Source: Deltaproteobacteria bacterium (GTDB lineage Bacteria > Lernaellota > Lernaellaia > JACKCT01). Taken from it: DNA of 64,000 bases. The position numbers and the translations under genes were made by a program. Shown here piece after piece: positions 23,134 through 47,044 of the stretch. The notes beneath the pieces are model-generated. The model made no database searches, was not told the DNA's origin, and saw only the letters and a list, made by a program, of their open reading frames with translations. Positions within the stretch are counted from its first letter, which is position 1. The number at the start of each line of letters is the position of its first letter. The stretch lies in NCBI GenBank assembly GCA_020845895.1, contig JADLEX010000078.1, forward strand, positions 801 to 64,800. The letters run 5' to 3'.

Positions 23134-23201
23134 TGCGGCACCTTCCGCACGGCCGACCGACCGGAAAATTCCGAAGGATAAAGATCGGGCGGGGTCCGGA
23201 C

Positions 23202-25517: not shown

Positions 25518-25685
25518 CGCTCATTCCCGTCGCGGGCTCGGATCGAATTCGGCGCGATCGGTTTCGCCCGCACGCGCACTCAGGTCATACATTTTCGGCA
25601 ATTCCCGGCGCCCCAATCGCCGGGGGACGAAACCCATAGCACGATCGCCGTGTGTCGCCAAGCGCCGGGCGACCCGAAATGCGAA

Positions 25686-25715
25686 ACGCCCCTTTCGGCG
25701 AACCGGAAGGGGCGT
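25686..25715 (-). terminator. Hairpin ACGCCCCTT-(12 nt)-AAGGGGCGT downstream of the 25738..26487 gene
   Basis: Perfect 9-bp inverted repeat with T-rich flanks on both strands. Confidence 0.4.
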
Positions 25716-25737
25716 CGCGTCGGATTTTCGCGTCAGA

Positions 25738-26487
25738 TCAGGGCAGGCAGCTCACGTAGCTCGCGAACACGCCCGCCAGGTCGTCGGTCGTTTCGATCAG
25801 CGAGAATTCGGCGCCGAGTCCGGCGAAGCAGCTCACGGTATTCGCGACCTCGGAGAGCGACTCGCAAGCGGGGTGAGCCGATTCGCAGGCCGCCTCGTCG
25901 TCGCCGAACGCGCGGTCCATGGCGCAGTCGAGGTAGCCGGCGCAGTTCGCGCCCTCGGCCTCGGCGCGCGCCGCGAAGTCGGTTTCGGCCGCGATCACGC
26001 AGTCGAAGACCTGCTCGCCGCACGCGGCCATGCACGCGGCGGAATCGCACTCGAACGCGCAGTTCGCGCCGGCGTCGGCGCAAGCCACCGCGTCGGTGCG
26101 GATCTGGTCGAAGCTGACGAGATCGGCCATCGGCACGTCGCCGTGGATCGCCATCTCGATGTCCGAACCCCACTCATCGGCGCCGAAATCGACGTTCAGC
26201 CCGGCGAAGTCGTCGAGCAACCCGGTGCCGTCGAGCGCGTCCATCTTGCTCGCGCAGCCGCCGCATCCGTCGCAGCCGCACGCGCCGGTCGCGGGATCCT
26301 CGGAATAATCCGGGTCCTCGGTCGTGTCGTCGTCGGCCGACGTGTCATCATCGTCCATGTTTTCGAAGTCGTTCTCCTTGTTTTCGTCGTCGTCATCGTC
26401 GTCGTCGGAACAACCCCCGAGACCGATGGTGAGAGCGCCAAGAAGAGACAGGACCACCAACAGCGTCGACCACGGCCACAAGCGCAT
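25738..26487 (-). CDS. Acidic Cys-rich lipoprotein of unknown function
   Basis: Signal peptide with lipobox 'LGGC'. A poly-Asp tether (DDDDDDDENKEND...DDDD) follows, then a C-rich domain with about 20 Cys residues. Start refined to MRLWPW at 26487. Confidence 0.5.
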   Translation of the reverse strand: MRLWPWSTLLVVLSLLGALTIGLGGCSDDDDDDDENKENDFENMDDDDTSADDDTTEDPDYSEDPATGACGCDGCGGCASKMDALDGTGLLDDFAGLNVDFGADEWGSDIEMAIHGDVPMADLVSFDQIRTDAVACADAGANCAFECDSAACMAACGEQVFDCVIAAETDFAARAEAEGANCAGYLDCAMDRAFGDDEAACESAHPACESLSEVANTVSCFAGLGAEFSLIETTDDLAGVFASYVSCLP

Positions 26488-26722
26488 TCGGTTCCCCCTC
26501 GTCGATGACGCCGCGAACGGGTCGCGGCCGCAAATGTGCGGAAATTCCAGCAATTTCAAGAACTATACACAAACGCGTCGAGCGAGGGAATACGCGCGAA
26601 TGGGTCATCAAGCCGCGGACCGCTTCTTCCGATAGATGCTGAGAGGGGAACGGAATTCCCCGTCGCGGGTTATTGGGGAGCCGCGCGACGTACCGGCGGC
26701 GACGCCAGGGACGGTGCCGAAA

Positions 26723-28735
26723 ATGAAACTCAAAAGAACTTTCACAGCCCTGGCGGCGATTCTGATCCTTTCGACGACCGTTTTTCCGTCGATCGCACTC
26801 GCGCAGGACGACATCGACATCGCGGCCATCCGCGCCGCCATCCGCCGGTCGGGCGCGAACTGGAGCGCCGCCGAGAACGTGGTCACGCGCCGTGGTATGA
26901 ACTTCATGTCGGCCCTCGCGGCCGCACCGGTGCCGGTCGTTCATTCCACCGATCGCTTCTTCGAACCCAACATGAGTCTCGCCCTGCCGACCGCCATCGA
27001 CTGGCGCGCCAACGGCGGGAACTACGTGACGCCGGTGCGCGATCAGGGCTCTTGCGGAAGCTGCTGGGCGTTCGCGGCGGTGGCGGCGGTCGAAGCGCGC
27101 GACGCGGTCTTCAACGGCATCGCGAGTCCCACGACCGACCTGTCCGAGCAACAAGTGCTTTCGTGCTCCGACGCGGGGGACTGCGTCGCGGGCGGATATC
27201 TCTCCGGGGCGCTCGACTACATCCAGGAAACCGGAACGCCCGACGAGTCGTGCTTCGCGTATGCGGGCTACAAGAAGAGCTGCGCGAGCACGTGCGGCGA
27301 CTGGGCGTCGCGCACGGTCACGATCGACGACTGGTCGTGGATCACGACCACCAACTACACCGACACCACGCTCATCAAGACCGCGCTCATGGATGGCCCC
27401 GTGCCCGTCTGGTACAAGATTTACATGGATTTCTACGCCTACACGGGCGGCGTGTATCAGCACGTGTGGGGCAACTACGTCGGCAACCACTTCGTTCTGA
27501 TCGTCGGCTACAACGACGCCGAACAGGCGTGGATCGTGAAAAACAGTTGGGGCGACGACTGGGGCATGAGCGGCTACTTCAAAATCAAGTACGCCGACTC
27601 CGAGTTCGGCTCCTGGGCCGCCGCCGTGACGCCGCAGGTCGATAGCTGCGCGCTGCCCGACCTCGACTTCGTCGCGAATCCCACCTCGGGACCTCCCGGC
27701 ACGGTCGTGTATTTCACCGAAACCGGCAACAAGCCGCAGTGTACGGTGACCGCGCGCAAGTGGACGTTCGGCGACGGCACCTACACCAGCCACCACAATC
27801 CGCTGCATGTCTACAACGCGGCGGGAAATTTCACCGTGAAGTATGAAGTGACGAATTCGGCGGGAACCTTCCGCGTGGAAAAACCCGCGCTCGTCGTCAT
27901 CGAGGACGACGCCGAGTGCCATGTGAACGCCGACTGCGAAGACGGCATCGGCTGCACCGTGAACACCTGCAATTCCCAGACGCTGACCTGCGAAATCGTG
28001 AACAACTGCGGCGACCGCACGCTCTCGGCCGACTGCGCGAACAGCGCGGGGAGCGGAGAATACACGCTGCCGATCGGGATCTCCGACGGCTCGAACGTCG
28101 ATGCCTACAACTTCAATCTCGATTTCGACAACGTGAATCTCCAGTTCAAGCAGATGACGACGAACGGCACGCTGCTGGAAGGCCGGGGCGTGTTTCTCTC
28201 GTGCGGCATGGAGGGCAACGGCGACATCGGGTGCAGCGGAAATCCGTACCCCGCGCTCGAGCCGGGATCGAGCGGCGTGCTGATGAACCTCGTCTTTACG
28301 GTGCTGGCCGACGCGGGCGCGGCCGAGTTTCGCCCCTACAACATGGGCGGCGATTTCGGCGGCATGACGGGCGAATCGTGCACGGCGTCGATCCTGCTCA
28401 TCGCGGGCGATGACGACGGTGATGATGATGCGGACGATGATTTGGCTGACGATGATGTCGACGATGACGCATCGGACGACGACGCGGATGACGACACCTG
28501 GTATCCCGACGACGATGCCGATGACGACAGTACCGATGACGATGCGGCGGATGACGACGCCGAGGATGATGACGCGGCGGATGACGACGCCGGCGACGAC
28601 GACGGCCTGTGGTGGGATGACGACGACGAGCCCGACGATGACGACATGTCGCCCGACACGAACTCGGGCGGTGAAGACGACAGCGCCGTGGACGTGGACT
28701 CCGACGAACAGCAGCAGGTCGCCTGCGGCTGCTGA
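26723..28735 (+). CDS. Secreted papain-family (C1A) cysteine peptidase with a PKD domain, a beta-rich module, an acidic Asp-rich C-terminal region and a terminal ACGC
   Basis: Catalytic 'QGSCGSCWAFA' and 'NSWG...GYF'. PKD-like 'WTFGDGTYTSHHNPLHVYNAAGNFTVKYEVTN'. The C-terminus reads 'DDDGDDDADDDLADDD...DTWYPDDDADDD...QQQVACGC*'. A type I signal peptide is present. Confidence 0.8.
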   Translation: MKLKRTFTALAAILILSTTVFPSIALAQDDIDIAAIRAAIRRSGANWSAAENVVTRRGMNFMSALAAAPVPVVHSTDRFFEPNMSLALPTAIDWRANGGNYVTPVRDQGSCGSCWAFAAVAAVEARDAVFNGIASPTTDLSEQQVLSCSDAGDCVAGGYLSGALDYIQETGTPDESCFAYAGYKKSCASTCGDWASRTVTIDDWSWITTTNYTDTTLIKTALMDGPVPVWYKIYMDFYAYTGGVYQHVWGNYVGNHFVLIVGYNDAEQAWIVKNSWGDDWGMSGYFKIKYADSEFGSWAAAVTPQVDSCALPDLDFVANPTSGPPGTVVYFTETGNKPQCTVTARKWTFGDGTYTSHHNPLHVYNAAGNFTVKYEVTNSAGTFRVEKPALVVIEDDAECHVNADCEDGIGCTVNTCNSQTLTCEIVNNCGDRTLSADCANSAGSGEYTLPIGISDGSNVDAYNFNLDFDNVNLQFKQMTTNGTLLEGRGVFLSCGMEGNGDIGCSGNPYPALEPGSSGVLMNLVFTVLADAGAAEFRPYNMGGDFGGMTGESCTASILLIAGDDDGDDDADDDLADDDVDDDASDDDADDDTWYPDDDADDDSTDDDAADDDAEDDDAADDDAGDDDGLWWDDDDEPDDDDMSPDTNSGGEDDSAVDVDSDEQQQVACGC

Positions 28736-28757
28736 TTCGCGCTTAGTGCGCGAAACG

Positions 28758-28791
28758 AAAAAAGCCCGGCTCGTCGCCGGGCTTTTCGTTT
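28758..28791 (+). terminator. Rho-independent terminator (AAAAAAGCCCGGC-tcgtc-GCCGGGCTTTTCGTTT)
   Basis: GC hairpin with A- and T-tracts on both sides, immediately after the peptidase gene stop. Confidence 0.7.
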
Positions 28792-28824
28792 GACCTGATC
28801 GATCCGTGAACGTACAACCGCGTC

Positions 28825-30567
28825 ATGCCGAAATTCGGAATTGCAGATCGAGGCGGGCCATCGCCGTCCAATCCCTCGATGTTCGACACGTCTGTCGTGA
28901 CGGGGATGATCGTCGCGGCGTATGCATTCGCCGTGCTGGCCCTCGGCACGCGGCCGGTCTTCGACAACGACATCGGCATCCACATCGGCGTGGGCCGCAC
29001 GATCTGGGAAAATCGGGCGGTCACCGGCCATGATTTTCATTCCCACACCGCGCCCGGCGCCGATTTTCTGGACCACGAATGGCTCGCGCGGCTTCTGTTC
29101 TTCGCCATCGACGGGGCGGGCGGCAACGCGGGGCTTGTCGCGTTTCAGGCGCTGACGGTGCTGATCGTTTTTGTTCTGCTGGCACGGAGCAATCGCGAGC
29201 ACGGCCTCGCGACGGCTCTCGTCCTTCTCGCCGCGGGCGTGGTGCTTTCCACACGCGTGCAGGTCCGCCCGCACGTGATCGCCTGGGTGTTGATCGCTCT
29301 TCAAATTGTTTTTCAAAAAAAAGGCAACCGCACGGCGATCGCGGCCTTGCTGGCGCTGTGGGCCAACATCCACGGCAGTTTTCTGCTCGGTGTCGCAATG
29401 GCGCTCGTCTGGTCGGCCGAGCGCTGGTGGACCTACCGCGACCGAAAATGGTTCGCATGGGCCGCGGCATTCGCGCTCGCGCCGATGGCGAATCCCTTCG
29501 GTTGGCGGATCTACGGCTTTGCCAGGCAAATCAAGGACATCAACTTTTTCGTTTCCGAGTGGCAGCCCTATTCACTCGCATCGGTTTACCCCTGGGTGAT
29601 CGCCGCGGTATTCGGGGCCATCGTCATCGACTTGATTCGACGGCGTGAGAATCTCCTGTTCGACGGCGCGAGGATCGCACTGCTCGCGGGACTGTCCTGG
29701 TCGGCCATGCGCCATGGGTCCGAAGCGATGTTGTACGCCGCGCCGATCTTTGCCGCGCGCTACGGTCCGGCGCTCGCGCGGATGCCGCGACGCGCGGGCA
29801 TCGCGAGCGCGTCGATGGTCGCTGTCGCCGCCGTGGCCGGAGGCGTCTATTTAGCCGCCGAGCGGCAGTCGTTTCGCTTCACCATCGATTCGCACGCGCT
29901 CCCAATTCGGGCGATAGATTTCATCAACCGTGAAGAGCCGACCGGTGAGATTTTCAACGATTACGATTTCGGCGGCTACCTGCTCTGGAAACTCGACCCA
30001 CGCCGAAAGGTTTTTGTCGACGGTCGGCTCGAGGTCTATGGCCCCGGCGGCCACCTTGACGAATATCTGCGCGTGTCCAATGGCGTGCCCGGTTGGCAAT
30101 CCATCCTGGACAAGTATGGCGTGAACATGTGCGTCGTTCGCGCTGACCGCCCGATTGCCAAGCAGCTTGACGAGAGAGGCGCGTGGGAGATGGTCTACTT
30201 CGATTACAACGCGGCGATTTTCCTGCGTCGCGGAGCGTCGCCCCAAATTCGTCGCATCACGAACTTCCGCCCGTGGGGCCACCGCGACAGGGACAATTTC
30301 CCGGTTCTGATCGACGAGGCGAAGTATTTGCTTGGCCAAAACCCCGAATTTTTCGGCGGCTTCAAGATGCTGGGATTCGTCCAGTATCGCTCCGGCGACT
30401 ATGCCGGCGCGCGCGACAGCATGCGCGAATACCTGCGCCTTTTTCCCGGCGGCGTGCGTTCGGAGCAAACCATGGAAATGCTCGGGAACCTTTCGGTGCG
30501 AGGGTTCGGACTCGACACCACGCACGGCAATACGGGGGGCATCATGCCCCAGTTCGACGAGCCGTGA
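28825..30567 (+). CDS. Large polytopic membrane protein with a periplasmic C-terminal domain; possible GT-C-like glycosyltransferase. Start may be the internal Met at 28879.
   Basis: About 8-10 TM helices in the N-terminal ~330 aa, then a soluble ~250-aa domain. Its stop is 2 nt from the start of the YfhO-like gene (operon). I cannot place the family with confidence. Confidence 0.45.
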   Translation: MPKFGIADRGGPSPSNPSMFDTSVVTGMIVAAYAFAVLALGTRPVFDNDIGIHIGVGRTIWENRAVTGHDFHSHTAPGADFLDHEWLARLLFFAIDGAGGNAGLVAFQALTVLIVFVLLARSNREHGLATALVLLAAGVVLSTRVQVRPHVIAWVLIALQIVFQKKGNRTAIAALLALWANIHGSFLLGVAMALVWSAERWWTYRDRKWFAWAAAFALAPMANPFGWRIYGFARQIKDINFFVSEWQPYSLASVYPWVIAAVFGAIVIDLIRRRENLLFDGARIALLAGLSWSAMRHGSEAMLYAAPIFAARYGPALARMPRRAGIASASMVAVAAVAGGVYLAAERQSFRFTIDSHALPIRAIDFINREEPTGEIFNDYDFGGYLLWKLDPRRKVFVDGRLEVYGPGGHLDEYLRVSNGVPGWQSILDKYGVNMCVVRADRPIAKQLDERGAWEMVYFDYNAAIFLRRGASPQIRRITNFRPWGHRDRDNFPVLIDEAKYLLGQNPEFFGGFKMLGFVQYRSGDYAGARDSMREYLRLFPGGVRSEQTMEMLGNLSVRGFGLDTTHGNTGGIMPQFDEP

Positions 30568-30569
30568 GA

Positions 30570-32738
30570 GTGCCGCGTCTCGGCCACGGGTTACTCGCCG
30601 CCTTGGTCATCGCAACCGCGCTGGGGGCATATGGTCAGCTTCTGACTCCGGGCCGCGTGTTGTACTCGCAGCACAGCGACCTGATGGCGCAGCACTTGGC
30701 GACCAAAACGATCCTCCATGAGTCGATCCGCTCCGGGCACGGCATCCCGGAATGGCGCGACGACCAGTTCGCGGGAAACACCGCCGCGGGCAATCCGCAG
30801 GCGATGGGTCTCTACCCCTTTCACTCGCTTTTTCTGGTGCTCGATCCCGTTCATGCCGTCGGGCTGACGTTTTTCCTCAATGTTCTTGCGTCGGCCGCGT
30901 CGTTCTTCTTGTTGGGCTGCGCTCTCGGTCTGGGGCGGGAAGCGCGTTGGTTCATGGCGGCGGCGGGACTGGTTTGGTTCAAATTGATGGCGGCGATTTA
31001 CGCGGGTTGGTTGTCCAACACGATGGTGATCGCCCTGCTGCCGGCTTTTTTCGCGGCGGTCGTTCACATGTCGCGCAGTCCGTCCATTGGGGCGGCGGTC
31101 GCGTTGGCTATTTCCGCGGCTCTTTGCGCCACCGGTGGGCACTTCCAGTATTTTTACTACGCGGTTCTGTTCGCCGCGGGATTTTTTGTCTGGAATCTGA
31201 TCCGGCCTCTGCGCTCCGGCGATCGTGCGGGACTCGCTTCGATGGTTCGCTTTTTGGCGGTCGCCCTGGTTCTTGGGTTGGGACTTTCCGCGTACGTGCT
31301 GCTTCCTTTGGCCCTCGACGCGCCGCTCCTCTCGCGCACGACGCCTTCGTACGAGTTTTTTCTCGCCGACCACGCGTTCACGCCTCGCTCGCTCCTGAGT
31401 TTTCTCACTCCCGCGGCTCTGCGGAACGCTGTCGGCGCGCGGGGCGTGGAGTTCTGGGAAGACGTCGGCTATTTCGGCGTCGTTCCTTTGCTGCTCGCCG
31501 CGTTCGCGATCATTCGTGGACGTCGAAACCCGCAAGTCGTCGCGTTTGCCCTGGCGCTGGCGATGACGATCCTGCTGACCGTTGATTCGCCGCTGCTGCG
31601 TTTCTGCTTCGATTACGTTCCGGGCTACGCACTGTTTCGCTCGCCCAACCGAATGTTGTTTCTCACGAGCGTTTTCGGAATCGGCCTTGCGGGGATCGGC
31701 CTGCAGGCCCTGCTGGAAATCGTCGAGAGCCACGGCTTGCAAAAGACCGTGTCGGCCATCGCCATTGCGTTGATCATCATCGTCGGAGGCGAAGGCGTCT
31801 ATCGCGCGCGGAATCTCCTGACGACGGCGCCGATCGACGAGGTCTGGCCCGCGCCGTCCGCGAACGAGTTTCCGGCCCCCGGCAACGCGCGTGAGCGAGT
31901 GCTCATCGCCGGAAGATCGACGATGAACTATGGACGGCTCGCGGCACTGGGACTGCCCTCGGTGAACGGCTACGACCCGTACAACTACACGCACATTTGG
32001 CGTTACCTCGATCTCATGACGCGAGGCCACGTGTCGGACGTCGGCGTCCGCGTATGGGGCGACACCCGCGGCATTGTTCGATGGGATCTGGCCGACGCCC
32101 TGGGAGTCGGGTGGATCGTCACGCCGGAGCCGATCGGGGATCTTCCGCCGTGGCTGGAACTCGTTTCGGAAATTCCCGACGCACCCAACTTTGTTTTTTA
32201 CAAAGGCATGGAGCGCGCGAGGCGATACGTTTATCGCAATACGAACGCGCGACCTCGCGCGTTTTGGGCGCGGCGCGCGATCAGCGCCGATCCCGAACAC
32301 CCCGCCCATCACCTTGCGGAACAGGCCGACTTGAGATCCACCGCCATCGTCGAAGGGTGGGGGTTTTCCGCCGTCAATTTCCAGGGGGCGGACGACGTGG
32401 TGACCGTTGTCGAATCGCGCACCGGCGTGCTGGCCCTCGAAACGATCAGCGCGCAAAAAAGCTTCCTGGTGATGAGCGAGATCTGGCATCCCGGTTGGCG
32501 GCTGACCGTGGACGGCGCTCCCGCGGAACTTTTTCGCACCGATATCGCGCTCATGGGAGCGTGGATCGATCCGGGCCACCACCGCATGGAGTTGCGCTTC
32601 CATCAACCGCTTCGGCAAGCGGGGATCGGGCTGAGCCTGATCAGCGCGGCGGCCATTTTCTGTAATTTCCTCTGGAGATTTCGTCGTCATCGGTGGACGG
32701 AATGTTCGCATGACCGCAGGTATTTGCCGAATACGTGA
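30570..32738 (+). CDS. YfhO-family membrane protein (GT-C-like, ~720 aa)
   Basis: Multi-TM N-terminal region followed by a C-terminal beta domain containing 'SEIWHPGWRLTVDGAPAELFRTDIALMGAWIDPGHHRMELRFH'. This resembles the conserved 'yy-PGW-ka-vDG' C-terminus of YfhO proteins. GTG start at 30570. Confidence 0.6.
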   Translation: MPRLGHGLLAALVIATALGAYGQLLTPGRVLYSQHSDLMAQHLATKTILHESIRSGHGIPEWRDDQFAGNTAAGNPQAMGLYPFHSLFLVLDPVHAVGLTFFLNVLASAASFFLLGCALGLGREARWFMAAAGLVWFKLMAAIYAGWLSNTMVIALLPAFFAAVVHMSRSPSIGAAVALAISAALCATGGHFQYFYYAVLFAAGFFVWNLIRPLRSGDRAGLASMVRFLAVALVLGLGLSAYVLLPLALDAPLLSRTTPSYEFFLADHAFTPRSLLSFLTPAALRNAVGARGVEFWEDVGYFGVVPLLLAAFAIIRGRRNPQVVAFALALAMTILLTVDSPLLRFCFDYVPGYALFRSPNRMLFLTSVFGIGLAGIGLQALLEIVESHGLQKTVSAIAIALIIIVGGEGVYRARNLLTTAPIDEVWPAPSANEFPAPGNARERVLIAGRSTMNYGRLAALGLPSVNGYDPYNYTHIWRYLDLMTRGHVSDVGVRVWGDTRGIVRWDLADALGVGWIVTPEPIGDLPPWLELVSEIPDAPNFVFYKGMERARRYVYRNTNARPRAFWARRAISADPEHPAHHLAEQADLRSTAIVEGWGFSAVNFQGADDVVTVVESRTGVLALETISAQKSFLVMSEIWHPGWRLTVDGAPAELFRTDIALMGAWIDPGHHRMELRFHQPLRQAGIGLSLISAAAIFCNFLWRFRRHRWTECSHDRRYLPNT

Positions 32739-32912
32739 GTCCCCTTACGAGTGTTTTCTCGTACCACTGGTTACAAATACAACACTGGGATTTTTCGATG
32801 CTCGCTCACGACGATGCTCCCGTCGCGTCCGCGCCCTGCAGGCGCCGGAAGCCGGGAGATCGACCGGATCGTGGCGGACAAATGGATGGACCGTCTTCCG
32901 TTGAGGGATCAA

Positions 32913-35162: not shown

Positions 35163-35189
35163 AGAAGATTCCCGATTCCGAACAAAAAA

Positions 35190-35208
35190 GCCCGGCTCGC
35201 CGCCGGGG
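35190..35208 (+). terminator. GC hairpin GCCCGGC-tcgcc-GCCGGGG after the first FG-GAP gene (weak; no T-tract)
   Basis: The same hairpin core as the terminators at 28764 and 40201, but it lacks the U-tail. Confidence 0.25.
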
Positions 35209-35493
35209 CCGGTCGTCGCGCTGCTGCTCGGTAACCGACGGACCTTCCTCCTCGGGGAGAGGGCCGGAGAGCGTCTTGAACCGTTCCAAGGTGCCTGCGC
35301 TCTCAAAAGGCGCATTTTCGTGAAATCCATTACGGGACATATTACGTAACCGTTAGTACAGTGTGTTCACGCAAAATGTAATCCCGTTGCGACTCGGCCG
35401 CGAAAAACGGGTCTGCCCCCGCGAATCGCAAGAGCGCCGACTGGTGGCGCCAGTGTGGGTTTCGGTCCTGGAATCGGATCTTTGGAGGGAAAC

Positions 35494-37887: not shown

Positions 37888-37931
37888 GAACAACGCCCGT
37901 CGGCACACTTTCCTCAATAAGGGAGAACGTC

Positions 37932-40169: not shown

Positions 40170-40190
40170 AACGCCGCGAAGTCCAATTTG

Positions 40191-40227
40191 ACAAACAAAA
40201 GCCCGGCGTCGCCGCCGGGCTTTTTTC
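40191..40227. terminator. Bidirectional rho-independent terminator (AAACAAAA-GCCCGGC-gtcgcc-GCCGGGC-TTTTTT) between convergent genes
   Basis: Hairpin flanked by an A-tract and a T-tract; lies between the stops at 40169 (+) and 40244 (-). Confidence 0.75.
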
Positions 40228-40243
40228 CGTCAATGCGTTCGCA

Positions 40244-41818: not shown

Positions 41819-41821
41819 TCC

Positions 41822-44245
41822 TTAATCCTCAAACATCGCGCCCTGTCCCCAGGACGAGGGTTCGGGACCCATGACAAATTCGAGTGTGCCGCCGCCCGCG
41901 ATGTCGTCGTGCGTGAACCACGGTACGTCGAGCGCCTCGCCATTGAGTGCCGCCGATTGCACATAGATGTTTTCGAACGACGCGTTTTCGGCGGTGATGA
42001 CGAGCTCGTTTTCGCCGACGCCCACCTTGGCCCACGGGAACACCGGGCTGCCGATCTGGTAATATGGCGAGCACGGCGCGACGGGGTAGAAACCGAGCAT
42101 CGTGAACACGGCCCACGCCGAGAGCGTGCCGCCGTCGTCATTGCCGAACACTCCCGCCGGGGCATCGCGGTGGCGATTGTGCAGCACCCAGCGCACCCAC
42201 TTGGCCGTCAGGTCGGGCCGCCCCGCGTAGTTGAACAGATACGGCGTGTGAATGTCGGGCTCGTTGCCGTGGTAGTAGAACAGATCGGGCAGCACGCCGT
42301 AGGGCTTGGGCTGAGGCCGCGTGCCGGCGAAAAACGCTTCGAGCTCGGCGACGAATTCCTCCTCGCCGCCGAAGAGGTCGATCAGACCCGGAACGTCGTG
42401 GGGCACGAACCAGCGCCAGTGCCGCGCGTTGCCCTCGACGTATTCGTCGTACCAAAGCCACGCTTCGAGAAAGCCGGCGAGAAAGTCGCCCGATTCGTCG
42501 CGCGCGCGGAAAAACTTCGTGTCCTCATCCCACAGGTTCGCGTAATTGCCCGCGCGCTCGGCGAACATCTCGGCGTCCGCCGTTTCGCCCAGCGCGTCGG
42601 CGAGCACCGACAGGCAGTAGTCGTTGTACGCATACTCCTGCGTTTTTGAGACCGATCCGCTCGCCTCGTCGGCGGACAGCCACCCGCGCCCGGTCCAACT
42701 GTCCACATGGTCGCGGTTGCCGTAGGGCACCGGGCCGACGGCGTGCGCGCGCAGCCCCTCATACGCGGTGTCAATGTCGAAATCCGTCACGCCCTTGATG
42801 TACGCGTCGGCAATCACCGAGTCGGAGTGCGTGCCGATCATGCTGCCCGTGTCGCCAAGCCCCTGCGCCCACTTGGGAAACGCGCCGCCCTCCTCGTACA
42901 TCTTCACGAGCGAGATCGCCATGTCGCGCGCGTAATCGGGATGCAGCAGCACCACGAGCGGATGGAAGGTGCGGAACGTGTCCCACAACGACAGGTCCGT
43001 GTAGTACGTGAAGCCGTCGGCGTCGTGCGCCGCGCGGTCGAAGCCCACGTATTTGCCGTTTTCCTCGGTGTACGACGTGACGAGCTGGTCGAGGTGATAG
43101 AGCGCCGAGTAGAAGATCCGCTTGTCGTATTCGCGCCCGCCCGCCACCTGCACGCTCATCAGGCGCTCGTTCCACACCGCGCCCGACGCCGCGCGCACCG
43201 CGTCGAAATCCCAATCGGCGATTTGCGCATCGAGGTTCGCGCGCGCCTGCTCGACGCTCTGGATCGACAGGCCGACCTTGGCGAACACCGTGCCTTTTGC
43301 GGCCGCGAAGCCCACGTACGCGCCGACCGTCGGGCCGCTCGCGCTCGTTCCGCCCGGAGTGCGCACCCCCGCGTCGAAGGTGCCGAAATCCTCGAAGGGT
43401 TCCGAAAAACGCGCGACGAAGTGGATCGGCAATCCTCCCGAGCGTCCCGTGAAGCCGCCGCGCTGGTCGATCATGCCGGTGACCTCCCGCGCGGAATCGT
43501 CGACCGTCACCTCGGCGTCGAAAACCTGCCCGGGTACGTTGGCGTATCCCGCGTCGATGACGACATACGGCTCGGCGCCCGCCGCAAAGGTGTAGCGGTG
43601 AAAGCCCGCGTTCATGGTCGAGGTGAGTTCCACGTCCACGTCGTAGCGGTCGAGATGCACGCGGTAGTAGCCCGGCTCGCCCGATTCGTTGTCGTGCGAA
43701 AACGGTGAGCGGTAGCCCGCGTTCGTGACTTTTTCGTCCGAGATGCCGTCCACCGGCATGAGGTTGACGTTGCAAAGATCCGTCGCGCCGATGCCCGGCA
43801 GGTGCATGTGTGAGATGCCGCGGATCGTGTTGTCCGGGTAGTAATAGCCGCCCGCGTGCATCTTTTCGTGCGCGAATCCGCCGATCGACGTATCGGGTGT
43901 GAGCTTCACCATCGAACCCGGCAGGTTGGGCCCGGGAATCAGCGCGCCCATGCCGTAGCCGATGCCGCCCGTGCCGATGAAGACGTTGACGAAATCGACC
44001 GGGTTGTCGACGGGTTCGAGATCGTCGTCGTCATCTGCCGTGTCGTCGTCGGGCAGAGGCGGCCACGTGTCGTCGTCGCCCGCGTCGTCGTCGGTGTCGT
44101 CATCGGCGGAATCGTCATCCGACGAGTCGTCGTCGACCGGCGAAGGGCTGGAGTTGTTGTCGTCGTCGTCATCGCCGCAACCCGCGATAAGCAGGGCCGA
44201 TAGCGAGCACGCCAAAATCCAAACGGTGAATTTCGTCATCGTCAT
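41822..44245 (-). CDS. Glycoside hydrolase family 92 (alpha-mannosidase) lipoprotein with an N-terminal poly-Asp tether
   Basis: Lipobox 'LIAGCG' and tether '...DDDAGDDDTWPPLPDDDTADDDDD'. GH92 N-terminal motif 'FVNVFIGTGG...GPNLPGSMVKLTPDTS'. Conserved 'YHGNEPDIHTPYLFNYAGRPD'. Start at MTMTKF (44245). Confidence 0.7.
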   Translation of the reverse strand: MTMTKFTVWILACSLSALLIAGCGDDDDDNNSSPSPVDDDSSDDDSADDDTDDDAGDDDTWPPLPDDDTADDDDDLEPVDNPVDFVNVFIGTGGIGYGMGALIPGPNLPGSMVKLTPDTSIGGFAHEKMHAGGYYYPDNTIRGISHMHLPGIGATDLCNVNLMPVDGISDEKVTNAGYRSPFSHDNESGEPGYYRVHLDRYDVDVELTSTMNAGFHRYTFAAGAEPYVVIDAGYANVPGQVFDAEVTVDDSAREVTGMIDQRGGFTGRSGGLPIHFVARFSEPFEDFGTFDAGVRTPGGTSASGPTVGAYVGFAAAKGTVFAKVGLSIQSVEQARANLDAQIADWDFDAVRAASGAVWNERLMSVQVAGGREYDKRIFYSALYHLDQLVTSYTEENGKYVGFDRAAHDADGFTYYTDLSLWDTFRTFHPLVVLLHPDYARDMAISLVKMYEEGGAFPKWAQGLGDTGSMIGTHSDSVIADAYIKGVTDFDIDTAYEGLRAHAVGPVPYGNRDHVDSWTGRGWLSADEASGSVSKTQEYAYNDYCLSVLADALGETADAEMFAERAGNYANLWDEDTKFFRARDESGDFLAGFLEAWLWYDEYVEGNARHWRWFVPHDVPGLIDLFGGEEEFVAELEAFFAGTRPQPKPYGVLPDLFYYHGNEPDIHTPYLFNYAGRPDLTAKWVRWVLHNRHRDAPAGVFGNDDGGTLSAWAVFTMLGFYPVAPCSPYYQIGSPVFPWAKVGVGENELVITAENASFENIYVQSAALNGEALDVPWFTHDDIAGGGTLEFVMGPEPSSWGQGAMFED
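44044..44092. repeat. Dispersed ~49-bp coding cassette, copy 2 of 3
   Basis: See copy 1. Confidence 0.7.
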
Positions 44246-44249
44246 CCCG

Positions 44250-46778
44250 TCATGGGAACGCCACGGGCCCGAGCCCCTGCGCGTTGGTATTGCCATATTC
44301 GTCGCTCACGCCGCCCGGCGCAATCGAGACCGCGTGCGCCACGGCGTGTGCGCGCGTGAAAACGCCCTCGTAGTTGCCGCCGCCCACCGGTTCGAGCATG
44401 ACCGGCTCGTCGCCGAATCCCGACACGTGAATTGTCGCCGCAATCGACCCGCCTTCCGCGGAGGACCACGCCCCCGCCGAGGCGGTCATCGAACGCAGCC
44501 GGAACCCGCCGGGATTCGGCGGCATGAGCGCGCGGCACGAGACGCGAAACTCGTCGCCTCCCATCGCCGTGACCGCAAGATCGGTGACGGCGAGCCCGGT
44601 CGAAACGTCCACCGTGAACGTGCGTGAATAGATGGTGTACGGCGCCGTGCGATCGCCGTCCGAGCCGTCGCCCAGGGCTTTGAGTCGGTACATGCCCGAT
44701 GGCGTGCCCGCCGTGAGTTCCCAGTCGATGCGCCAGCGGTGGCGTCGCTGATAGGGAAACCCGCGCGTCTCATAGTCGGGTTCGGGCGCGTATTGCATCA
44801 GGGTGTCGATCGTCGCGTCGGTGACCGTTCGGCCGTCCGGACGCAGGAGCGGCGCGAAGCCCGCGCCGTCGTCGCGCTCCACGGTCACGCGCGGCGAGCC
44901 CAGAGCGGTGTAGCCGCCCGACCACTCGAAGGTGACCGTATCGAATCGCTCGTAGGTCGCGTGCGCCTGTGTGATGATCTCGCCCGCGAGCACGCCGGGT
45001 TCGATTTCGGCGGGCACATACGAATACGGCCACGGGTGACGCTGGCGGGCGGGCGCGCCGATTTCGTTGTTTTCCTTCTCCGGCGTCAGGAGCTGCGTGG
45101 CGAGGTCCACATTCTGCCCCGCGAGCCACTCGCCGAACTTCGGCCCCCAGAAGTTCATCGACGTTTCGTAACCGCCCTGCATCCAGTCCCAATCCATCAG
45201 CAAATACATCTGCGTGTCGTTGGCGTAGCCGAACGCGGCGATTTTGTCGGCGGGCCATACGAGTTCGGTTTCAACGCTCTCGCGCAGGTGCTTGGCGAGC
45301 CACGACGTGAGTTCGCCGGGCATCAACGGCATGATGTAATCGCCGAGACGCACGACGCCGATCTCCGCGGTGTCGAGCACCCACGACCACGGTTCGACCC
45401 AGTGAATGGGCACGTAACAGCCGTAGTAGCCGTCGAGCATCTTCGTTTCCTGATCGTTGCAGTCGACGATCGAACCTTCCGCCTCGAAAAACGACCGCTC
45501 CCCGCACCCCCACGCGCCGTGTTTGTATTCGTAGAATCGTCCGGTAATGAGGCCGTGGTAGCCGAACTCGCCGTCCTCATATCCGATCGCGTCGCGCGTG
45601 ATCGTCACGCGCTTCGACACCATCTCGAAGGTCCAGTCATCGGTCGGCGTGAGATCGTCGTAGGTGTCGCGGATCATGTCCGCCGCGCGCTGCCCCAAGT
45701 GCTCCAGATTCTGCCACTCGGGCAGATCGTAGCCCGAGCCGACCGGCGTCGAATCGCCACCCGCCGCTTGAATGAACAGCACCGGCACCGGCGTGTCGAA
45801 GGTCGATTCCATGCCGTGTTCCACCGCGCCGGGTGCGTCGGACGTCATCAGAGTGGAATGGGCCATGGTGCCGTGCATCCCCCAGCCGACCAACACCGCG
45901 AGCGGCGATCCGTCCTCGCGGTCGATGCGCGCGAGGAACATCCGGTCTTCCTTGTATTCCGGCGGGTTGTTCTGGCACCGGCGGTCGCGGAAGAGGCGAT
46001 TCGTCGGGTCGAACGGCGCTTGCAGCGTCACCGCCATTTTCGCGGGGACGAGATTCGCCATGCTGTCCGCGATGACGCGCGCGATCGACACGGCCATGCG
46101 GTCCTCGATGCGCTGGTCGTAGGTGTCCATGCCGGAAATGCCGAGCACCACCGGCAGTCCGTAGAAATGGTCGGGACCCGAGTGCGAGTGCGTGGACGAG
46201 AGCCAGAGTTTTTCGGAAAGGTTCAGTCCGGTGAGGCGGCAGACCTCGTCGAGCACGCGCGTGTACAGCGTGGCCGAGATGAGCGCGACGGGAATGCGCG
46301 CGATCACCAGCCGGTCCGCGCCGTTGTCGATGGTGACGGCCTTCACGTCCGGCCGGTCATGATACCCGGTCGACGCACCCATCATGATCGCGAAGGGATG
46401 CCGGGGCCCCGACCGCGCGCCATAGCCGCCCATGCTGATGCCGACCGGCGCATAGAGTTCGCCCACGGCGACGCCCGCGTGAAGCGACGCGAGGGTCTCG
46501 CCCCCGGGCGCTTCGTCGCACACGGGCGGCGCGGTGTCGTCATCGCCGGTGTCGTCGTCCTCGGCGTCGTCGTCGGGCAACGGCGGCCACGTGTCGTCGT
46601 CGCCCGCGTCGTCGTCGGCATCGTCGTCCGGCAAGACGCCGGTATCGTCGTCGGACGCATCGTCGTCGAGCACCGCGGAATCGTCGTCCGTCGCCGAATC
46701 CGCCGAAGGGTCGTCATCCCCGTTTCCGCACGCGACGCACGCGAAAGCCACGACCGCCAAAATGAAAAGCGATTTCAT
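44250..46778 (-). CDS. Neutral/alkaline ceramidase-like lipoprotein with an N-terminal poly-Asp tether
   Basis: Lipobox 'VACG' and tether '...DDDAGDDDTWPPLPDDDAEDDDTGDDD'. The N-terminal domain is ceramidase-like: 'GISMGGYGARSGP...' and 'LSSTHSHSGPDHFYG' (cf. the THTHSGP motif of neutral ceramidases). Start refined to MKSLFIL at 46778. The upstream part of the ORF-track entry is the back-translation of the tRNA gene. Confidence 0.55.
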   Translation of the reverse strand: MKSLFILAVVAFACVACGNGDDDPSADSATDDDSAVLDDDASDDDTGVLPDDDADDDAGDDDTWPPLPDDDAEDDDTGDDDTAPPVCDEAPGGETLASLHAGVAVGELYAPVGISMGGYGARSGPRHPFAIMMGASTGYHDRPDVKAVTIDNGADRLVIARIPVALISATLYTRVLDEVCRLTGLNLSEKLWLSSTHSHSGPDHFYGLPVVLGISGMDTYDQRIEDRMAVSIARVIADSMANLVPAKMAVTLQAPFDPTNRLFRDRRCQNNPPEYKEDRMFLARIDREDGSPLAVLVGWGMHGTMAHSTLMTSDAPGAVEHGMESTFDTPVPVLFIQAAGGDSTPVGSGYDLPEWQNLEHLGQRAADMIRDTYDDLTPTDDWTFEMVSKRVTITRDAIGYEDGEFGYHGLITGRFYEYKHGAWGCGERSFFEAEGSIVDCNDQETKMLDGYYGCYVPIHWVEPWSWVLDTAEIGVVRLGDYIMPLMPGELTSWLAKHLRESVETELVWPADKIAAFGYANDTQMYLLMDWDWMQGGYETSMNFWGPKFGEWLAGQNVDLATQLLTPEKENNEIGAPARQRHPWPYSYVPAEIEPGVLAGEIITQAHATYERFDTVTFEWSGGYTALGSPRVTVERDDGAGFAPLLRPDGRTVTDATIDTLMQYAPEPDYETRGFPYQRRHRWRIDWELTAGTPSGMYRLKALGDGSDGDRTAPYTIYSRTFTVDVSTGLAVTDLAVTAMGGDEFRVSCRALMPPNPGGFRLRSMTASAGAWSSAEGGSIAATIHVSGFGDEPVMLEPVGGGNYEGVFTRAHAVAHAVSIAPGGVSDEYGNTNAQGLGPVAFP
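46566..46614. repeat. Dispersed ~49-bp coding cassette, copy 3 of 3
   Basis: See copy 1. Confidence 0.7.
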
Positions 46779-46966
46779 GCGGGGGAATCTAGCACAAGCG
46801 AGCGCGGCGCTCACCCCCGTCCGCGCGGTCGAAGCCGAGAGAGGGGACCGCAACCGGGAACCAACAACCAACAACCTCCGCACGCGTTTGACGCGCGGGG
46901 CATGGGGCGCTAATAAGGCGGCTCGCGCCGGTCGCCCGGTTTGTCGGATGATTGTGCGACTCGTTT

Positions 46967-47040
46967 GGGGTTGTAGCTCAGCCGGATAGAGCACCAGGCT
47001 TCGAACCTGGGTGTCGGGGGTTCGAATCCCTCCAGCCCCG
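46967..47040 (+). tRNA. tRNA-Arg, anticodon TCG (UCG); no encoded CCA
   Basis: Cloverleaf by eye: acceptor GGGGTTG/CAGCCCC, D-arm GCTC..GAGC, anticodon stem CCAGG/CCTGG with loop CTTCGAA, T-arm GGGGG-TTCGAAT-CCCTC, discriminator G. Confidence 0.85.
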
Positions 47041-47044
47041 TTCC

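What the first reader, a model, noticed from the sequence alone, without database searches (positions are those of the whole stretch)
25738..46778. 21-kb surface-protein island sharing poly-Asp tethers, a reused DDDTWPPLPDDD cassette and a terminal Gly-Cys-x-Cys motif
Nine consecutive genes between parA and tRNA-Arg encode exported proteins, and they share recurring modules. (1) Five lipoproteins (25738, 40244, 41822 and 44250, plus the 1009 fragment) place a long (DDDx)n tether directly after the lipobox Cys. (2) Three of them reuse an almost identical 49-bp cassette encoding DDDAGDDDTWPPLPDDD. (3) Four secreted proteins (26723, 32913, 35494 and 37932) end with an acidic or poly-Thr tract followed by a terminal Cys motif (ACGC, GGCCGC, GSGCSV, GGGCGCG) immediately before the stop codon. 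The motif recalls the Cys-containing start of MYXO-CTERM sorting signals, but the hydrophobic helix and Arg cluster are absent. It could therefore be a distinct C-terminal sorting, lipidation or cross-linking tag, or a metal-binding cap next to Ca2+-binding poly-Asp. I have not seen this combination described.
Basis: partly seen in the sequence, partly recalled or inferred. Interest (0 to 1): 0.7.

Follow-up and report, generated by a model that had tools for sequence, protein, structure and literature searches.

The report
Helix-less MYXO-CTERM-like Cys tail tag
Exported enzymes and adhesins of this uncultured bacterium end in an acidic spacer plus Gly-Cys-Gly-Cys-stop, which is the opening motif of the myxobacterial MYXO-CTERM surface-sorting signal without its membrane helix and arginine tail, so it looks like an undescribed, already-trimmed anchoring tag.

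Summary
Three island genes end in an acidic tract followed by ACGC, GGCCGC or GGGCGCG and a stop codon. A fourth ends in a degenerate GSGCSV. No reading frame continues into a helix or Arg cluster, and three of the four stops are followed by terminator hairpins. Four lipoproteins place (DDDx)n directly after the lipobox Cys, and three of them share the DDDAGDDDTWPPLPDDD cassette.

The tail is not local. I found 17 Cx0-1C tails on unrelated exported proteins in at least four assemblies and four metagenome contigs. These carriers include peptidases, FG-GAP proteins, a deiminase, a phosphoesterase and a PKD protein. Synonymous codon changes and both TGA and TAG stops occur among them. No such tail appears in 1,157 control ORFs from other phyla.

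The same DNA-encoded DDDGGGCGC elsewhere continues into tails that NCBIfam scores as MYXO-CTERM. The window tails cover only model positions 1-6 and do not score.

My best reading (confidence 0.4) is an envelope-retention tag that equals the predicted product of myxosortase cleavage and works through its terminal thiols. The chemistry is unknown.

- Two "exported" genes are polytopic GT-C-like membrane proteins.
- Both FG-GAP proteins are also lipoproteins.
- The island is not conserved as a gene block in the two relatives examined.

The parts
25738..26487 (-). Small Cys-rich lipoprotein. Lipobox Cys at 26410-26412, acidic tether to about 26326, then a CxCxxCxxC cluster (GACGCDGCGGC, 26254-26280) and a helical Cys-rich domain.
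   Evidence: Translation. No Pfam or NCBIfam hit. A homologue with the same Cys spacing sits next to a tagged gene in L081 (32% identity, E = 1e-22). The AF2 model has low confidence.
26723..28735 (+). Sec-exported papain-family (C1) peptidase plus PKD domain. A 109-aa acidic (DDDx)n linker (28406-28735) ends ...QQQVACGC-stop.
   Evidence: Pfam PF00112 (E = 2.8e-49) and PKD. Tail and downstream frames.
28764..28782 (+). Terminator hairpin GCCCGGC-loop-GCCGGGC plus T-run, 29 nt after the stop of the peptidase gene.
   Evidence: This hairpin occurs only three times in the 64 kb window, each time just after a CxC-tagged gene.
28825..30567 (+). Polytopic membrane protein (at least 7 hydrophobic segments) with a weakly TPR-like C-terminal region (sub-threshold hits only). 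Possibly a GT-C-like glycosyltransferase. It is not a surface protein.
   Evidence: (weak hits only).
30570..32738 (+). YfhO-family (GT-C) membrane glycosyltransferase-like protein with at least 10 hydrophobic segments. Its start overlaps the stop of the previous gene.
   Evidence: Pfam PF09586, 48 bits against a cut-off of 28.5. Weak PgfM1 hit. Start and TM scan.
32913..35162 (+). FG-GAP x7 (integrin-alpha-like) lipoprotein with lipobox LIAC. A poly-Thr, Gly and Asp linker (34950-35162) ends ...DDDDDGGCCGC-stop.
   Evidence: The homologue in L149 ends ...DDDDDDGGCCGC*.
35190..35207 (+). The same hairpin type after the first FG-GAP gene.
35494..37887 (+). Paralogous FG-GAP x7 lipoprotein (lipobox LLSC, 72.5% identical to the previous one). 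A poly-Thr plus (DDDx)n linker (37528-37887) ends in the degenerate tail ...DDDDDRGSGCSV-stop.
37932..40169 (+). Sec-exported 745-aa protein with three internal repeats and Cys-rich repeats, and no family hit. A (DDDx)n linker (39972-40169) ends ...DDDDGGGCGCG-stop.
40201..40220 (+). The same hairpin type plus T-run after gene 37932.
40244..41812 (-). Lipoprotein of unknown family. C|GGDDDDND tether (41588-41755) containing the TWPPLP cassette (41615-41668).
41822..44245 (-). GH92 alpha-mannosidase-type lipoprotein. C|GDDDDDNN tether (44027-44179) with the cassette (44039-44092).
   Evidence: Pfam PF07971 (E = 3.4e-156) and TIGR01180. Tether and cassette.
44250..46778 (-). Neutral-ceramidase-like lipoprotein. 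C|GNGDDD tether (about 46530-46730) with the cassette (46563-46616).
   Evidence: Pfam PF04734 (E = 4.5e-12). Tether and cassette.
46966..47041 (+). tRNA-Arg(TCG), the right-hand boundary of the region.
   Evidence: ARAGORN. An overlapping call on the minus strand was also returned.
1009..1509 (+). Truncated lipoprotein (LAASC|GGGGGDD... plus a Gly/Asp tether) with only the first ~100 of 255 model positions of an FGE-sulfatase domain.

Best explanation
The tail is a spacer (acidic, or poly-Thr followed by an acidic run) followed by 0-3 Gly/Ser/Asn/Ala residues, then C(x0-1)C or CGCGC, then 0-1 residue and the stop. I read it as a lineage-specific C-terminal envelope-retention tag. It corresponds to the signature motif of MYXO-CTERM with the transmembrane helix and Arg cluster genetically absent. 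The protein is therefore made with the C-terminus that myxosortase is predicted to create by cutting just after the last Cys.

Proposed course:
- The carrier is exported by Sec. This is read from the sequences: every carrier with a complete N-terminus has a type I or type II signal peptide.
- The disordered acidic or Thr-rich tract acts as a stalk (inferred).
- The terminal thiols are the attachment chemistry (inferred). This would be either S-lipidation, as predicted but not yet proven for MYXO-CTERM, or a disulfide or thiol link to a lipid-anchored partner such as the CxCxxCxxC lipoprotein encoded next to tagged genes in two genomes.
- The hydrolase or adhesin is thereby kept at the cell surface without an intramembrane sorting protease (inferred).

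The N-terminal lipoproteins of the same locus use the mirror arrangement, lipid-Cys-Gly-(Asp)n-domain. The TWPPLP cassette is a conserved peptide motif near the tether-domain junction, and its role is unknown.
For: (a) The tail is real and ends the protein. Stops are followed by terminator hairpins in three of the four window genes, and no frame continues into a helix or Arg cluster.

(b) It recurs. There are 17 Cx0-1C tails plus one degenerate tail:
- window: 3 plus the degenerate one
- GCA_027493875.1: 5 (L081, L149)
- GCA_023382855.1: 2 (L151)
- Logan SRR16693997: 1 (L150)
- metagenome contigs L132 (3), L110, L117, L091
.

(c) Selection acts on the peptide. Gly and Cys codons vary synonymously (GGA/GGC/GGT/GGG, TGC/TGT) and both TGA and TAG stops occur, while the amino acids stay the same.

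(d) Carriers are unrelated: C1 peptidase, FG-GAP, PAD_porph deiminase, Metallophos, S8 subtilase, PKD, CBM, DUF6055. All eight with complete N-termini have signal peptides. This is the usual cargo profile of a sorting signal.

(e) It is identical to the MYXO-CTERM signature. DDDGGGCGC either stops or runs into helix + RRRR. TIGR03901 positions 1-6 align to GGGCGC. [quoted passage not shown]

(f) The tail occupies the anchor position. Among the 150 best homologues of the FG-GAP protein, at least 13 end in Cys + helix + Arg, and others end in PEP-CTERM-like or other C-terminal signals. The same-lineage homologue listed (P0245, 60% identity) ends ...DDDDDSGCGCGC*.

(g) Mirror symmetry with the lipoboxes, C-G-G-D-D-D-D against D-D-D-D-G-G-G-C. 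GGG or ND(N/D) directly after the lipid-Cys is the surface-sorting motif of T2SS-dependent lipoproteins in Acinetobacter (PMC12802150).

(h) Enrichment at C-termini.
Against: - No chemistry is shown. Lipidation of MYXO-CTERM itself is only predicted.
- The proposed Lgt-like step needs the Cys held at the membrane by the helix that is missing here.
- Three carriers (two window FG-GAP proteins and P0245) and the 58-aa P0045 already have an N-terminal lipid anchor, so a second anchor is not obviously needed.
- No candidate modifying enzyme or myxosortase is seen in the roughly 200 kb of lineage DNA held. This is too little sequence to be meaningful.
- The putative partner lipoprotein is adjacent to tags in only 2 of 6 loci.
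- About 60 kb from Ca. Lernaella stagnicola and a second region of GCA_027493875.1 contain no tags, so the tag is patchy.
- One of four window tails (GSGCSV) has degenerated, which shows the constraint is not absolute.
Confidence: 0.4

Rival explanations
1. The tail is a redox-active or metal-binding cap rather than an anchor. A terminal CGC (or CCGC, CGCGC) on a flexible acidic stalk would form a strained disulfide that promotes thiol-disulfide exchange or oligomerisation. Alternatively it would chelate soft metals, with the neighbouring poly-Asp binding Ca2+ or Mg2+. In either case the protein is not tethered to the envelope.
For: CGC in a disordered periplasmic loop is the active site of the disulfide-forming protein MauE (bioRxiv 10.64898/2026.03.05.709764). 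Short Cys-Xaa-Cys peptides can replace PDI (bioRxiv 10.64898/2026.01.27.701630, abstract). Some tails have three Cys, which leaves an odd thiol. A conserved CxCxxCxxC lipoprotein is encoded next to tagged genes in two genomes.
Against: The motif is the MYXO-CTERM signature and sits where homologues carry membrane-anchoring signals. It is attached to many unrelated enzymes that have no evident need for a redox or metal site. Its strict position at the very end of the chain is unexplained by catalysis.
Confidence: 0.25
2. The tail is an evolutionary relic. Ancestral MYXO-CTERM domains lost the helix and Arg cluster through premature stops after the lineage lost its myxosortase, and the remaining GCGC has no function.
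For: Sequence identity with the MYXO-CTERM signature. One degenerate tail, GSGCSV, in the window. Variants with extra residues also exist: GGGCGCSMTDFGSD* in L094 and GGCCGCE* in L150.
Against: Independent stops falling at the same position (0-1 residue after the last Cys) in 17 genes of several genomes would be very unlikely without selection. The amino acids are conserved through synonymous changes. Homologues at 61-64% identity keep the same GGCCGC tail. No intermediate truncations inside the helix were found among 62 metagenome matches.
Confidence: 0.1
3. The tail is carried along by a DNA-level 3' cassette. A recombining segment holding the end of the ORF, the stop and a terminator spreads among genes, so the peptide is a by-product of GAC/GGC/TGC repeat DNA.
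For: The hairpin GCCCGGC-N-GCCGGG occurs only three times in the window, always just after a CxC-tagged gene. Two window tails share 81% identity over 53 nt. The two L081 tails share identical tail codons and closely similar 3' flanks.
Against: The spacers between stop and hairpin are unrelated in the window. Tails in other genomes have different flanks and synonymous differences. Module shuffling is also how genuine sorting signals spread, so this explains spread and not absence of function.
Confidence: 0.05

Closest known systems
MYXO-CTERM sorting signal and myxosortase (MrtX; NCBIfam TIGR03901 / TIGR03382 'GC_trans_RRR')
   Same: Both have a disordered Gly/Asp/Thr-rich linker followed by the G-C-G-C signature near the C-terminus of Sec-exported hydrolases and adhesins. 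The DNA-encoded DDDGGGCGC is identical. The window tails end where cleavage is predicted.
   Different: There is no transmembrane helix and no Arg cluster, and the models do not score. The intramembrane protease therefore has no substrate, and the Cys is not held at the membrane. The source is a MAG deposited as 'Deltaproteobacteria bacterium', possibly near Ca. Lernaellota, and is not shown to be Myxococcota or Bradymonadales.
Classical N-terminal bacterial lipoproteins with disordered tethers, including T2SS-dependent surface lipoproteins (GGG or ND(N/D) after the Cys) and the Bacteroidota acidic export signal
   Same: The island's lipoproteins have a lipobox Cys followed by Gly/Asp/Asn-rich residues and a long disordered linker. 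The C-terminal tag is the mirror image of this arrangement.
   Different: The tethers here are exceptionally long, regular (DDDx)n tracts of 30-60 aa with an embedded TWPPLP motif. No transport experiment exists for this lineage.
[quoted passage not shown]
   Same: All have an invariant Cys close to the C-terminus of exported proteins and a presumed lipid attachment.
   Different: All of those retain a hydrophobic segment after the Cys, and the tails here do not. The only 'lipo-invert' hit was a sub-threshold match to the N-terminal signal peptide of P0045 (15.7 bits against a cut-off of 37).
Eukaryotic C-terminal CXC / CC / CaaX prenylation motifs (Rab, Ras; Rce1 is the homologue of myxosortase)
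   Same: The Cys-x-Cys sits at the extreme C-terminus after a flexible hypervariable linker. The CPBP/Rce1 connection is drawn in PMC11980579. The Rab CXC rule is from my own knowledge.
   Different: Those systems are cytosolic and use soluble prenyltransferases. The proteins here are exported, and no prenyltransferase was identified.
CXC redox motifs (MauE active site, PDI-mimic peptides)
   Same: CGC in a disordered, periplasm-exposed segment.
   Different: Those motifs are catalytic sites within dedicated proteins, not terminal appendages on diverse cargo.

Membership tests
MYXO-CTERM sorting domain | Short signature motif with an invariant Cys (generic GCGC) close to the C-terminus, after a low-complexity linker | tested here: met
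   Tails ACGC, GGCCGC and GGGCGCG after acidic or Thr-rich linkers. The same DDDGGGCGC starts bona fide MYXO-CTERM tails.
MYXO-CTERM sorting domain | Hydrophobic transmembrane helix following the signature | tested here: not met
   The stop codon falls 0-1 residue after the last Cys. No frame downstream encodes a helix, and three of the four window genes are followed by terminator hairpins.
MYXO-CTERM sorting domain | Arg-rich cluster at the extreme C-terminus | tested here: not met
   Absent in all 18 tails.
MYXO-CTERM sorting domain | Score above cut-off with TIGR03901 or TIGR03382 | tested here: not met
   No hit at E <= 10 for the three CxC window tails or for P0045, and no hit at E <= 1 for the full-length GSGCSV protein. 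Positive controls scored 23-34 bits against a cut-off of 20 in five of six full-length tails, and 19.5 bits in the sixth.
MYXO-CTERM sorting domain | Cognate myxosortase (CPBP family, MrtX/MrtC/MrtP core NF040914) in the same genome | not testable with these tools
   Only the 64 kb window and about 130 kb of related loci are held. None of their annotated genes is CPBP-like. This is far too little sequence to call absence.
MYXO-CTERM sorting domain | Occurrence in Myxococcota or Bradymonadales | tested here: inconclusive
   The source is deposited as 'Deltaproteobacteria bacterium'. The best non-self ParA matches are 59% or lower and include several Myxococcota. Tether lipoproteins and RsfS (50% identity) point loosely to Ca. 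Lernaella.
Bacterial lipoproteins (Lgt/LspA pathway) | Signal peptide ending in a lipobox with an invariant Cys | tested here: met
   Read from the translations: LGGC, LAGC, IAGC, LIAC, LLSC, LAASC, and the atypical CVAC. No dedicated predictor was available.
Bacterial lipoproteins (Lgt/LspA pathway) | Lgt, LspA (and Lnt) encoded in the genome | not tested
   Not present in the held sequence.
YfhO / GT-C membrane glycosyltransferases (genes 28825 and 30570) | Pfam PF09586 above the gathering score plus polytopic topology | tested here: met
   Gene 30570-32738 scores 48 bits against a cut-off of 28.5 and has at least 10 hydrophobic segments. Gene 28825-30567 has only sub-threshold hits, so its membership is inconclusive.
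Selenocysteine or stop-codon recoding after the tail | Consistent UGA followed by an in-frame coding continuation | tested here: not met
   Both TGA and TAG are used. The downstream frames are terminator sequence, not coding.

The most novel reading that the evidence does not exclude
This would be a sorting-protease-free C-terminal cysteine anchor. Exported proteins whose encoded end ...(Asp)n-Gly-Cys-Gly-Cys-COOH is modified directly on its thiols in the periplasm, by lipid or by covalent linkage to an envelope component, would be the natural equivalent of a myxosortase product. That would mean the GCGC signature carries the anchoring chemistry of MYXO-CTERM and the helix does not. It would also define a new bacterial modification of a free C-terminal CXC, a prokaryotic counterpart of Rab-type CXC lipidation.
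Probability: 0.3. Interest if true: 0.85.

Novelty: new variant of a known kind. Interest (0 to 1): 0.65.

Why it matters
The modification on the invariant Cys of MYXO-CTERM, and the enzyme that makes it, are still unknown. PMC11980579 proposes lipidation by an Lgt-like enzyme before cleavage. A lineage that encodes the already-cut form on many proteins separates the signature from the helix.

If such tails are still modified and retain proteins at the surface, then the helix and the protease are dispensable for the chemistry, and the modifying enzyme cannot depend on membrane embedding. If they are not modified, then the helix is essential, and these tails have some other role such as redox activity, metal binding or cross-linking.

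Either result is directly testable, for example by replacing the TraA MYXO-CTERM with ...GCGC-stop in wild-type and mrtX-deleted Myxococcus.

The tag is also a practical annotation marker. No Pfam or NCBIfam model scored any tested tail. The regular (DDDx)n tethers with the TWPPLP motif are a second unannotated building block of this lineage's surface proteome.

Tried and rejected
- Frameshift or read-through into a normal MYXO-CTERM. All three frames downstream of the four stops were translated, and none contains a helix or Arg cluster. Rejected.
- Selenocysteine or stop recoding. Tails are followed by both TGA and TAG. Rejected.
- Known-family assignment of the tail. Pfam and NCBIfam gave nothing for full proteins or for isolated tails, even at E <= 10. 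The SaoC 'CC-COOH' hits fall inside FG-GAP repeats and are irrelevant.
- Profile search with ten aligned tails against 5.8 billion proteins. It found nothing at E <= 10, because the profile is too short and low in complexity. The tether profile returned only proteins of 160 aa or fewer, apparently a length effect of the tool.
- The 745-aa protein 37932 has almost no homologues: only two weak partial hits.
- AF2 of the Cys-cluster lipoprotein without an alignment gave pLDDT 50. The model was not usable, so no fold search was run.
- Looking for island genes near tags in other genomes. Only the 25738 homologue was found, in L081. The GT-C pair is not next to the FG-GAP pair in L149.
It gave one close relative (L001) and otherwise served as a control set from other phyla.
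- The Ace Lake paper on Ca. Lernaellota does not mention lipoproteins; the aspartate passages shown concern metabolism.

Full report
**What is in the region**

The span 25738-46778 lies between parAB (23755-25517) and tRNA-Arg (46966-47041). It sits in an otherwise housekeeping neighbourhood that includes the ATP synthase operon, bactofilin, isocitrate dehydrogenase and acetyl-CoA synthetase. The span holds ten genes:

| Coordinates | Strand | Product |
|---|---|---|
| 25738-26487 | - | Small Cys-rich lipoprotein |
| 26723-28735 | + | C1 peptidase + PKD protein |
| 28825-30567 | + | Polytopic membrane protein, at least 7 hydrophobic segments |
| 30570-32738 | + | Polytopic membrane protein, at least 10 hydrophobic segments; scores as YfhO/GT-C (48 bits, cut-off 28.5) |
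| 32913-35162 | + | FG-GAP x7 protein |
| 35494-37887 | + | FG-GAP x7 protein, 72.5% identical to the previous one |
| 37932-40169 | + | 745-aa repeat protein, no family |
| 40244-41812 | - | Lipoprotein of unknown family |
| 41822-44245 | - | GH92 lipoprotein |
| 44250-46778 | - | Ceramidase-like lipoprotein |

The two membrane-protein genes overlap start to stop.

**Checking the observation**

- Four lipoproteins and the truncated 1009-1509 ORF place Gly/Asp and then (DDDx)n directly after the lipobox Cys.
- Three lipoproteins share DDDAGDDDTWPPLPDDD, encoded by nearly identical DNA.
- Four + strand genes end ...QQQVACGC*...DDDDDGGCCGC*...DDDDDRGSGCSV* and ...DDDDGGGCGCG*.

I translated all three frames past each stop. 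None gives a hydrophobic helix or an Arg cluster. Three of the stops are followed within about 30 nt by a GC-rich hairpin, two with a T-run.

CxC is rare in this window: 5 occurrences in 18,221 residues of 40 genes.
- Four are within the last four residues of a protein. Three of these are in the island, and one is the cytoplasmic radical-SAM protein 6467-8245, which ends SCEC.
- The fifth is the cluster in the 25738 lipoprotein.

In 1,157 ORFs from 79 loci of other phyla (1.3 Mb, fetched with ParA), no ORF has an acidic Cx0-1C tail, against 3 of 44 here (p = 4.6e-5).

- Two of the "exported" genes are membrane enzymes.
- Both FG-GAP proteins carry lipoboxes (LIAC, LLSC).
- GSGCSV is a one-Cys variant.

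**Where the sequence comes from**

Gene 37932 is 100% identical to MCC6158490.1 from a MAG deposited as "Deltaproteobacteria bacterium", locus tag IT350_. A relative with 97% identical ParA exists (L001). Every other ParA match is 59% or lower, and several are Myxococcota. Short poly-Asp lipoproteins of the same style occur in Ca. Lernaella stagnicola and in several other "Deltaproteobacteria bacterium" MAGs. RsfS is 50% identical to that of Lernaella. I treat the affiliation (near Ca. Lernaellota / FEN-1099) as tentative. The paper describing that phylum does not mention lipoproteins.

**The tail is a recurrent tag**

By following tether-bearing proteins and FG-GAP homologues to their contigs, and by scanning metagenomes for DNA encoding DDDGGGCGC, I collected 17 Cx0-1C tails plus the degenerate one.

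- GCA_027493875.1 has five:
  - a 209-aa protein ending ...DDDDDDGGGCGC*;
  - the 58-aa mini-lipoprotein P0045, whose mature form would be only C-acidic linker-GGGCGC;
  - two FG-GAP lipoproteins ending ...GGCCGC* and ...SGCGCGC*;
  - a third tail, ...DSGCGC*.
- GCA_023382855.1 has two within a 4.9 kb contig.
- A Logan contig has ...GGCCGCE*.
- The 6.4 kb metagenome contig L132 has three.
- L110, L117 and L091 have one each.

L150 and L151 were fetched through the tether cassette and not through the tail, so their three tails are independent finds. Fifteen of the 18 end exactly in CGC-stop.

Carriers are unrelated: C1 peptidase, FG-GAP, PAD_porph deiminase, Metallophos, S8, PKD, CBM_4_9 (sub-threshold) and DUF6055 (marginally below the Pfam cut-off). 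All eight with complete N-termini have type I or type II signal peptides.

Codons for the Gly and Cys residues differ synonymously between tails, and both TGA and TAG terminate them. This argues for selection on the peptide and against selenocysteine recoding.

About 60 kb sampled from Lernaella stagnicola and from another part of GCA_027493875.1 have no tails. The tag is frequent near secreted-protein genes but not ubiquitous.

**Relation to MYXO-CTERM**

The metagenome scan gave a clean dichotomy. Of 62 matches:
- 4 stop immediately after CGC, all preceded by (DDDx)n;
- 1 (L094) has eight extra residues;
- 19 continue with a 3-12-residue spacer, a hydrophobic helix and RRRR;
- the rest are short non-coding-looking frames or simple repeats.

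NCBIfam scores five of six tested full-length tails (five from the scan contigs, one from FG-GAP homologue P0254) as MYXO-CTERM (TIGR03901, 23-34 bits, cut-off 20; four of the five also hit TIGR03382 "GC_trans_RRR" above its cut-off). In the example I counted, model positions 1-6 fall on GGGCGC. The three CxC window tails and P0045 give no hit at E <= 10.

PMC11980579 describes the signature as a "generic GCGC motif" and proposes Sec export, lipidation of the invariant Cys by an unidentified Lgt-like enzyme, cleavage by the CPBP protease MrtX and T2SS-dependent surface display. [quoted passage not shown] The same preprint states that MYXO-CTERM is limited to Myxococcota and Bradymonadales.

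The tails here therefore equal the predicted mature C-terminus. Two of the three defining parts of the domain are absent, so they are not members of the family.

**Position in homologues**

An exhaustive search with the FG-GAP protein gave 55,569 relatives. Among the best 150:
- at least 13 end in Cys + helix + Arg by a strict pattern, and about six more do so by eye;
- others end in PEP-CTERM-like or other C-terminal motifs;
- P0245, the same-lineage homologue among them (60% identity over the full length), ends ...DDDDDSGCGCGC*.

Its upstream paralogue keeps the same GGCCGC tail as window gene 32913, at 61% identity. The tail therefore occupies the position where related proteins carry envelope-anchoring signals.

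**Mechanism**

I commit, at confidence 0.4, to an envelope-retention tag that works through the terminal thiols.

Read directly from sequence or shown by computation:
- export signals on the carriers;
- strict terminal position of the tail;
- recurrence on diverse cargo;
- peptide-level conservation;
- identity with the MYXO-CTERM signature.

Inferred:
- that the thiols are modified or linked;
- that this retains the protein at the surface;
- that the acidic or Thr-rich tract is a stalk.

An argument from symmetry supports anchoring. Mature lipoproteins of the locus begin C-G-G-D-D-D-D, and the tails end D-D-D-D-G-G-G-C-G-C. GGG or ND(N/D) next to the lipid-Cys is a surface-sorting motif for T2SS-dependent lipoproteins in Acinetobacter.

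The main difficulty is that, without the helix, the Cys is not presented to a membrane enzyme. In addition, several carriers already have an N-terminal lipid.

A variant of the model links the tail by disulfide to a lipid-anchored partner. The 25738 lipoprotein has a CxCxxCxxC cluster right after its tether. Its only detected homologue (32% identity, E = 1e-22, same Cys spacing) lies next to P0045 in L081.

Rivals:
- a redox or metal cap (0.25), supported by the periplasmic CGC active site of MauE;
- a functionless relic (0.1);
- a DNA-level 3' cassette (0.05).

The last rival is prompted by the hairpin GCCCGGC-N-GCCGGG, which occurs only three times in the window and always after a CxC-tagged gene. 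It is also prompted by the closely similar 3' flanks of the two L081 tails. These facts show that tails spread by recombination. They do not show that the tails lack function.

**The tether cassette**

TWPPLP flanked by DDD is also present in L150 and L151, with synonymous differences (ACG/ACA, GAC/GAT, GGC/GGG; CCG/CCT and TTG/CTG vary among the window copies). In the five proteins examined (three window genes, P0004, P0005) it sits near the tether-domain junction. It is a conserved peptide motif of unknown role. The near-identity of the three window copies suggests gene conversion on top of that.

**The island as a unit**

The relative L001 is collinear with the window at 87% nucleotide identity from 15075 to 25716. 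It then diverges completely, 22 nt before the first island gene. The FG-GAP pair in GCA_027493875.1 has different neighbours. The region is therefore variable, and its genes are not a conserved operon.

**Novelty**

I found no description of a helix-less GCGC tail in the two myxosortase papers read, in two further literature searches, or in Pfam or NCBIfam. I file it as a new variant of a known kind. It is not a member of MYXO-CTERM, but it very probably derives from, or is ancestral to, that signal.

Noticed in passing
window 28825-32738 (+), next to 34950-35162 and 37528-37887: Two translationally coupled polytopic GT-C/YfhO-like membrane proteins lie directly upstream of the two FG-GAP genes. 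Those genes carry 50-70-residue poly-Thr/Ser stalks. There is a weak similarity to PgfM1, a glycosyltransferase in the NCBIfam library. The pair may O-glycosylate the stalks. The adjacency is not conserved in L149.
   Followed up: partly
window 26254-26280 (gene 25738-26487, -) and L081:10478-11233: This is a conserved lipoprotein family with a CxCxxCxxC cluster (GACGCDGCGGC / GSCSCSGCEGC) immediately after the poly-Asp tether. It is encoded next to CGC-tailed genes in both genomes. In L081 the gene is split over three frames. It could be a partner for the tails.
   Followed up: partly
window 28764-28782, 35190-35207, 40201-40220: The hairpin GCCCGGC-loop-GCCGGG(C) occurs only three times in 64 kb (0.29 expected by chance). 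Each copy lies 25-35 nt after the stop of a CxC-tailed gene.
   Followed up: partly
window 25716 / L001:1-553: A relative with 87% nucleotide identity (97% ParA) is collinear from 15075 to 25716 and then unrelated. Its neighbouring gene ends ...NPTPTGCE*. The synteny break coincides with the island edge.
   Followed up: partly
L081:10001-10177 (P0045) and L081:3180-3809: P0045 is a 58-aa ORF consisting only of a lipoprotein signal peptide, an acidic linker and GGGCGC-stop. Its tail codons and 3' flank closely match (two mismatches and a short length difference in ~70 nt) those of the 209-aa tagged gene 6 kb upstream. It may be a recent duplication or a minimal anchor peptide.
   Followed up: partly
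L094:217-1434: This is a variant tail, ...DDDDDDDDDDGGGCGCSMTDFGSD*, with eight extra residues and no helix or Arg cluster. It is intermediate between the helix-less and full forms.
   Followed up: no
window 6467-8245 (-): A cytoplasmic B12-binding radical-SAM protein ends ...GSPSCEC*, a CxC end with no acidic tract or signal peptide. It is probably unrelated to the tag. A second B12/radical-SAM gene lies at 1773-3218.
   Followed up: no
window 1-6000 (ORFs 296-925, 1009-1509, 3233-4930, 5259-5960): This is a low-GC patch (0.55-0.56 against about 0.65 elsewhere). It includes an ORF with GC3 of 0.39, ORFs without family hits, and the truncated FGE-sulfatase lipoprotein. It may be foreign or decayed DNA.
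   Followed up: no
P0133, P0137, P0139, P0141, P0151, P0155, P0156, P0170, P0224, P0231, P0269 (top FG-GAP homologues): Many homologues from other lineages end in a short [FY]LP[LVI][VIL]x[RK]x0-2-stop motif, for example ...IYLPLVVRQ* and ...FLPLVLRQ*. Another group ends ...CP*. I did not try to identify these possible further C-terminal signals.
   Followed up: no
L149:7568-12460 and P0016: The FG-GAP homologues in GCA_027493875.1 carry one or two copies of a small Cys-rich insert (CIIC...GWGCV..CC) between the poly-Thr stalk and the acidic tail. This insert is absent from the window genes.
   Followed up: no
window 46966-47057: ARAGORN calls tRNA-Arg(TCG) on both strands at overlapping coordinates (46966-47041 + and 46984-47057 -). 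Only one can be real.
   Followed up: no
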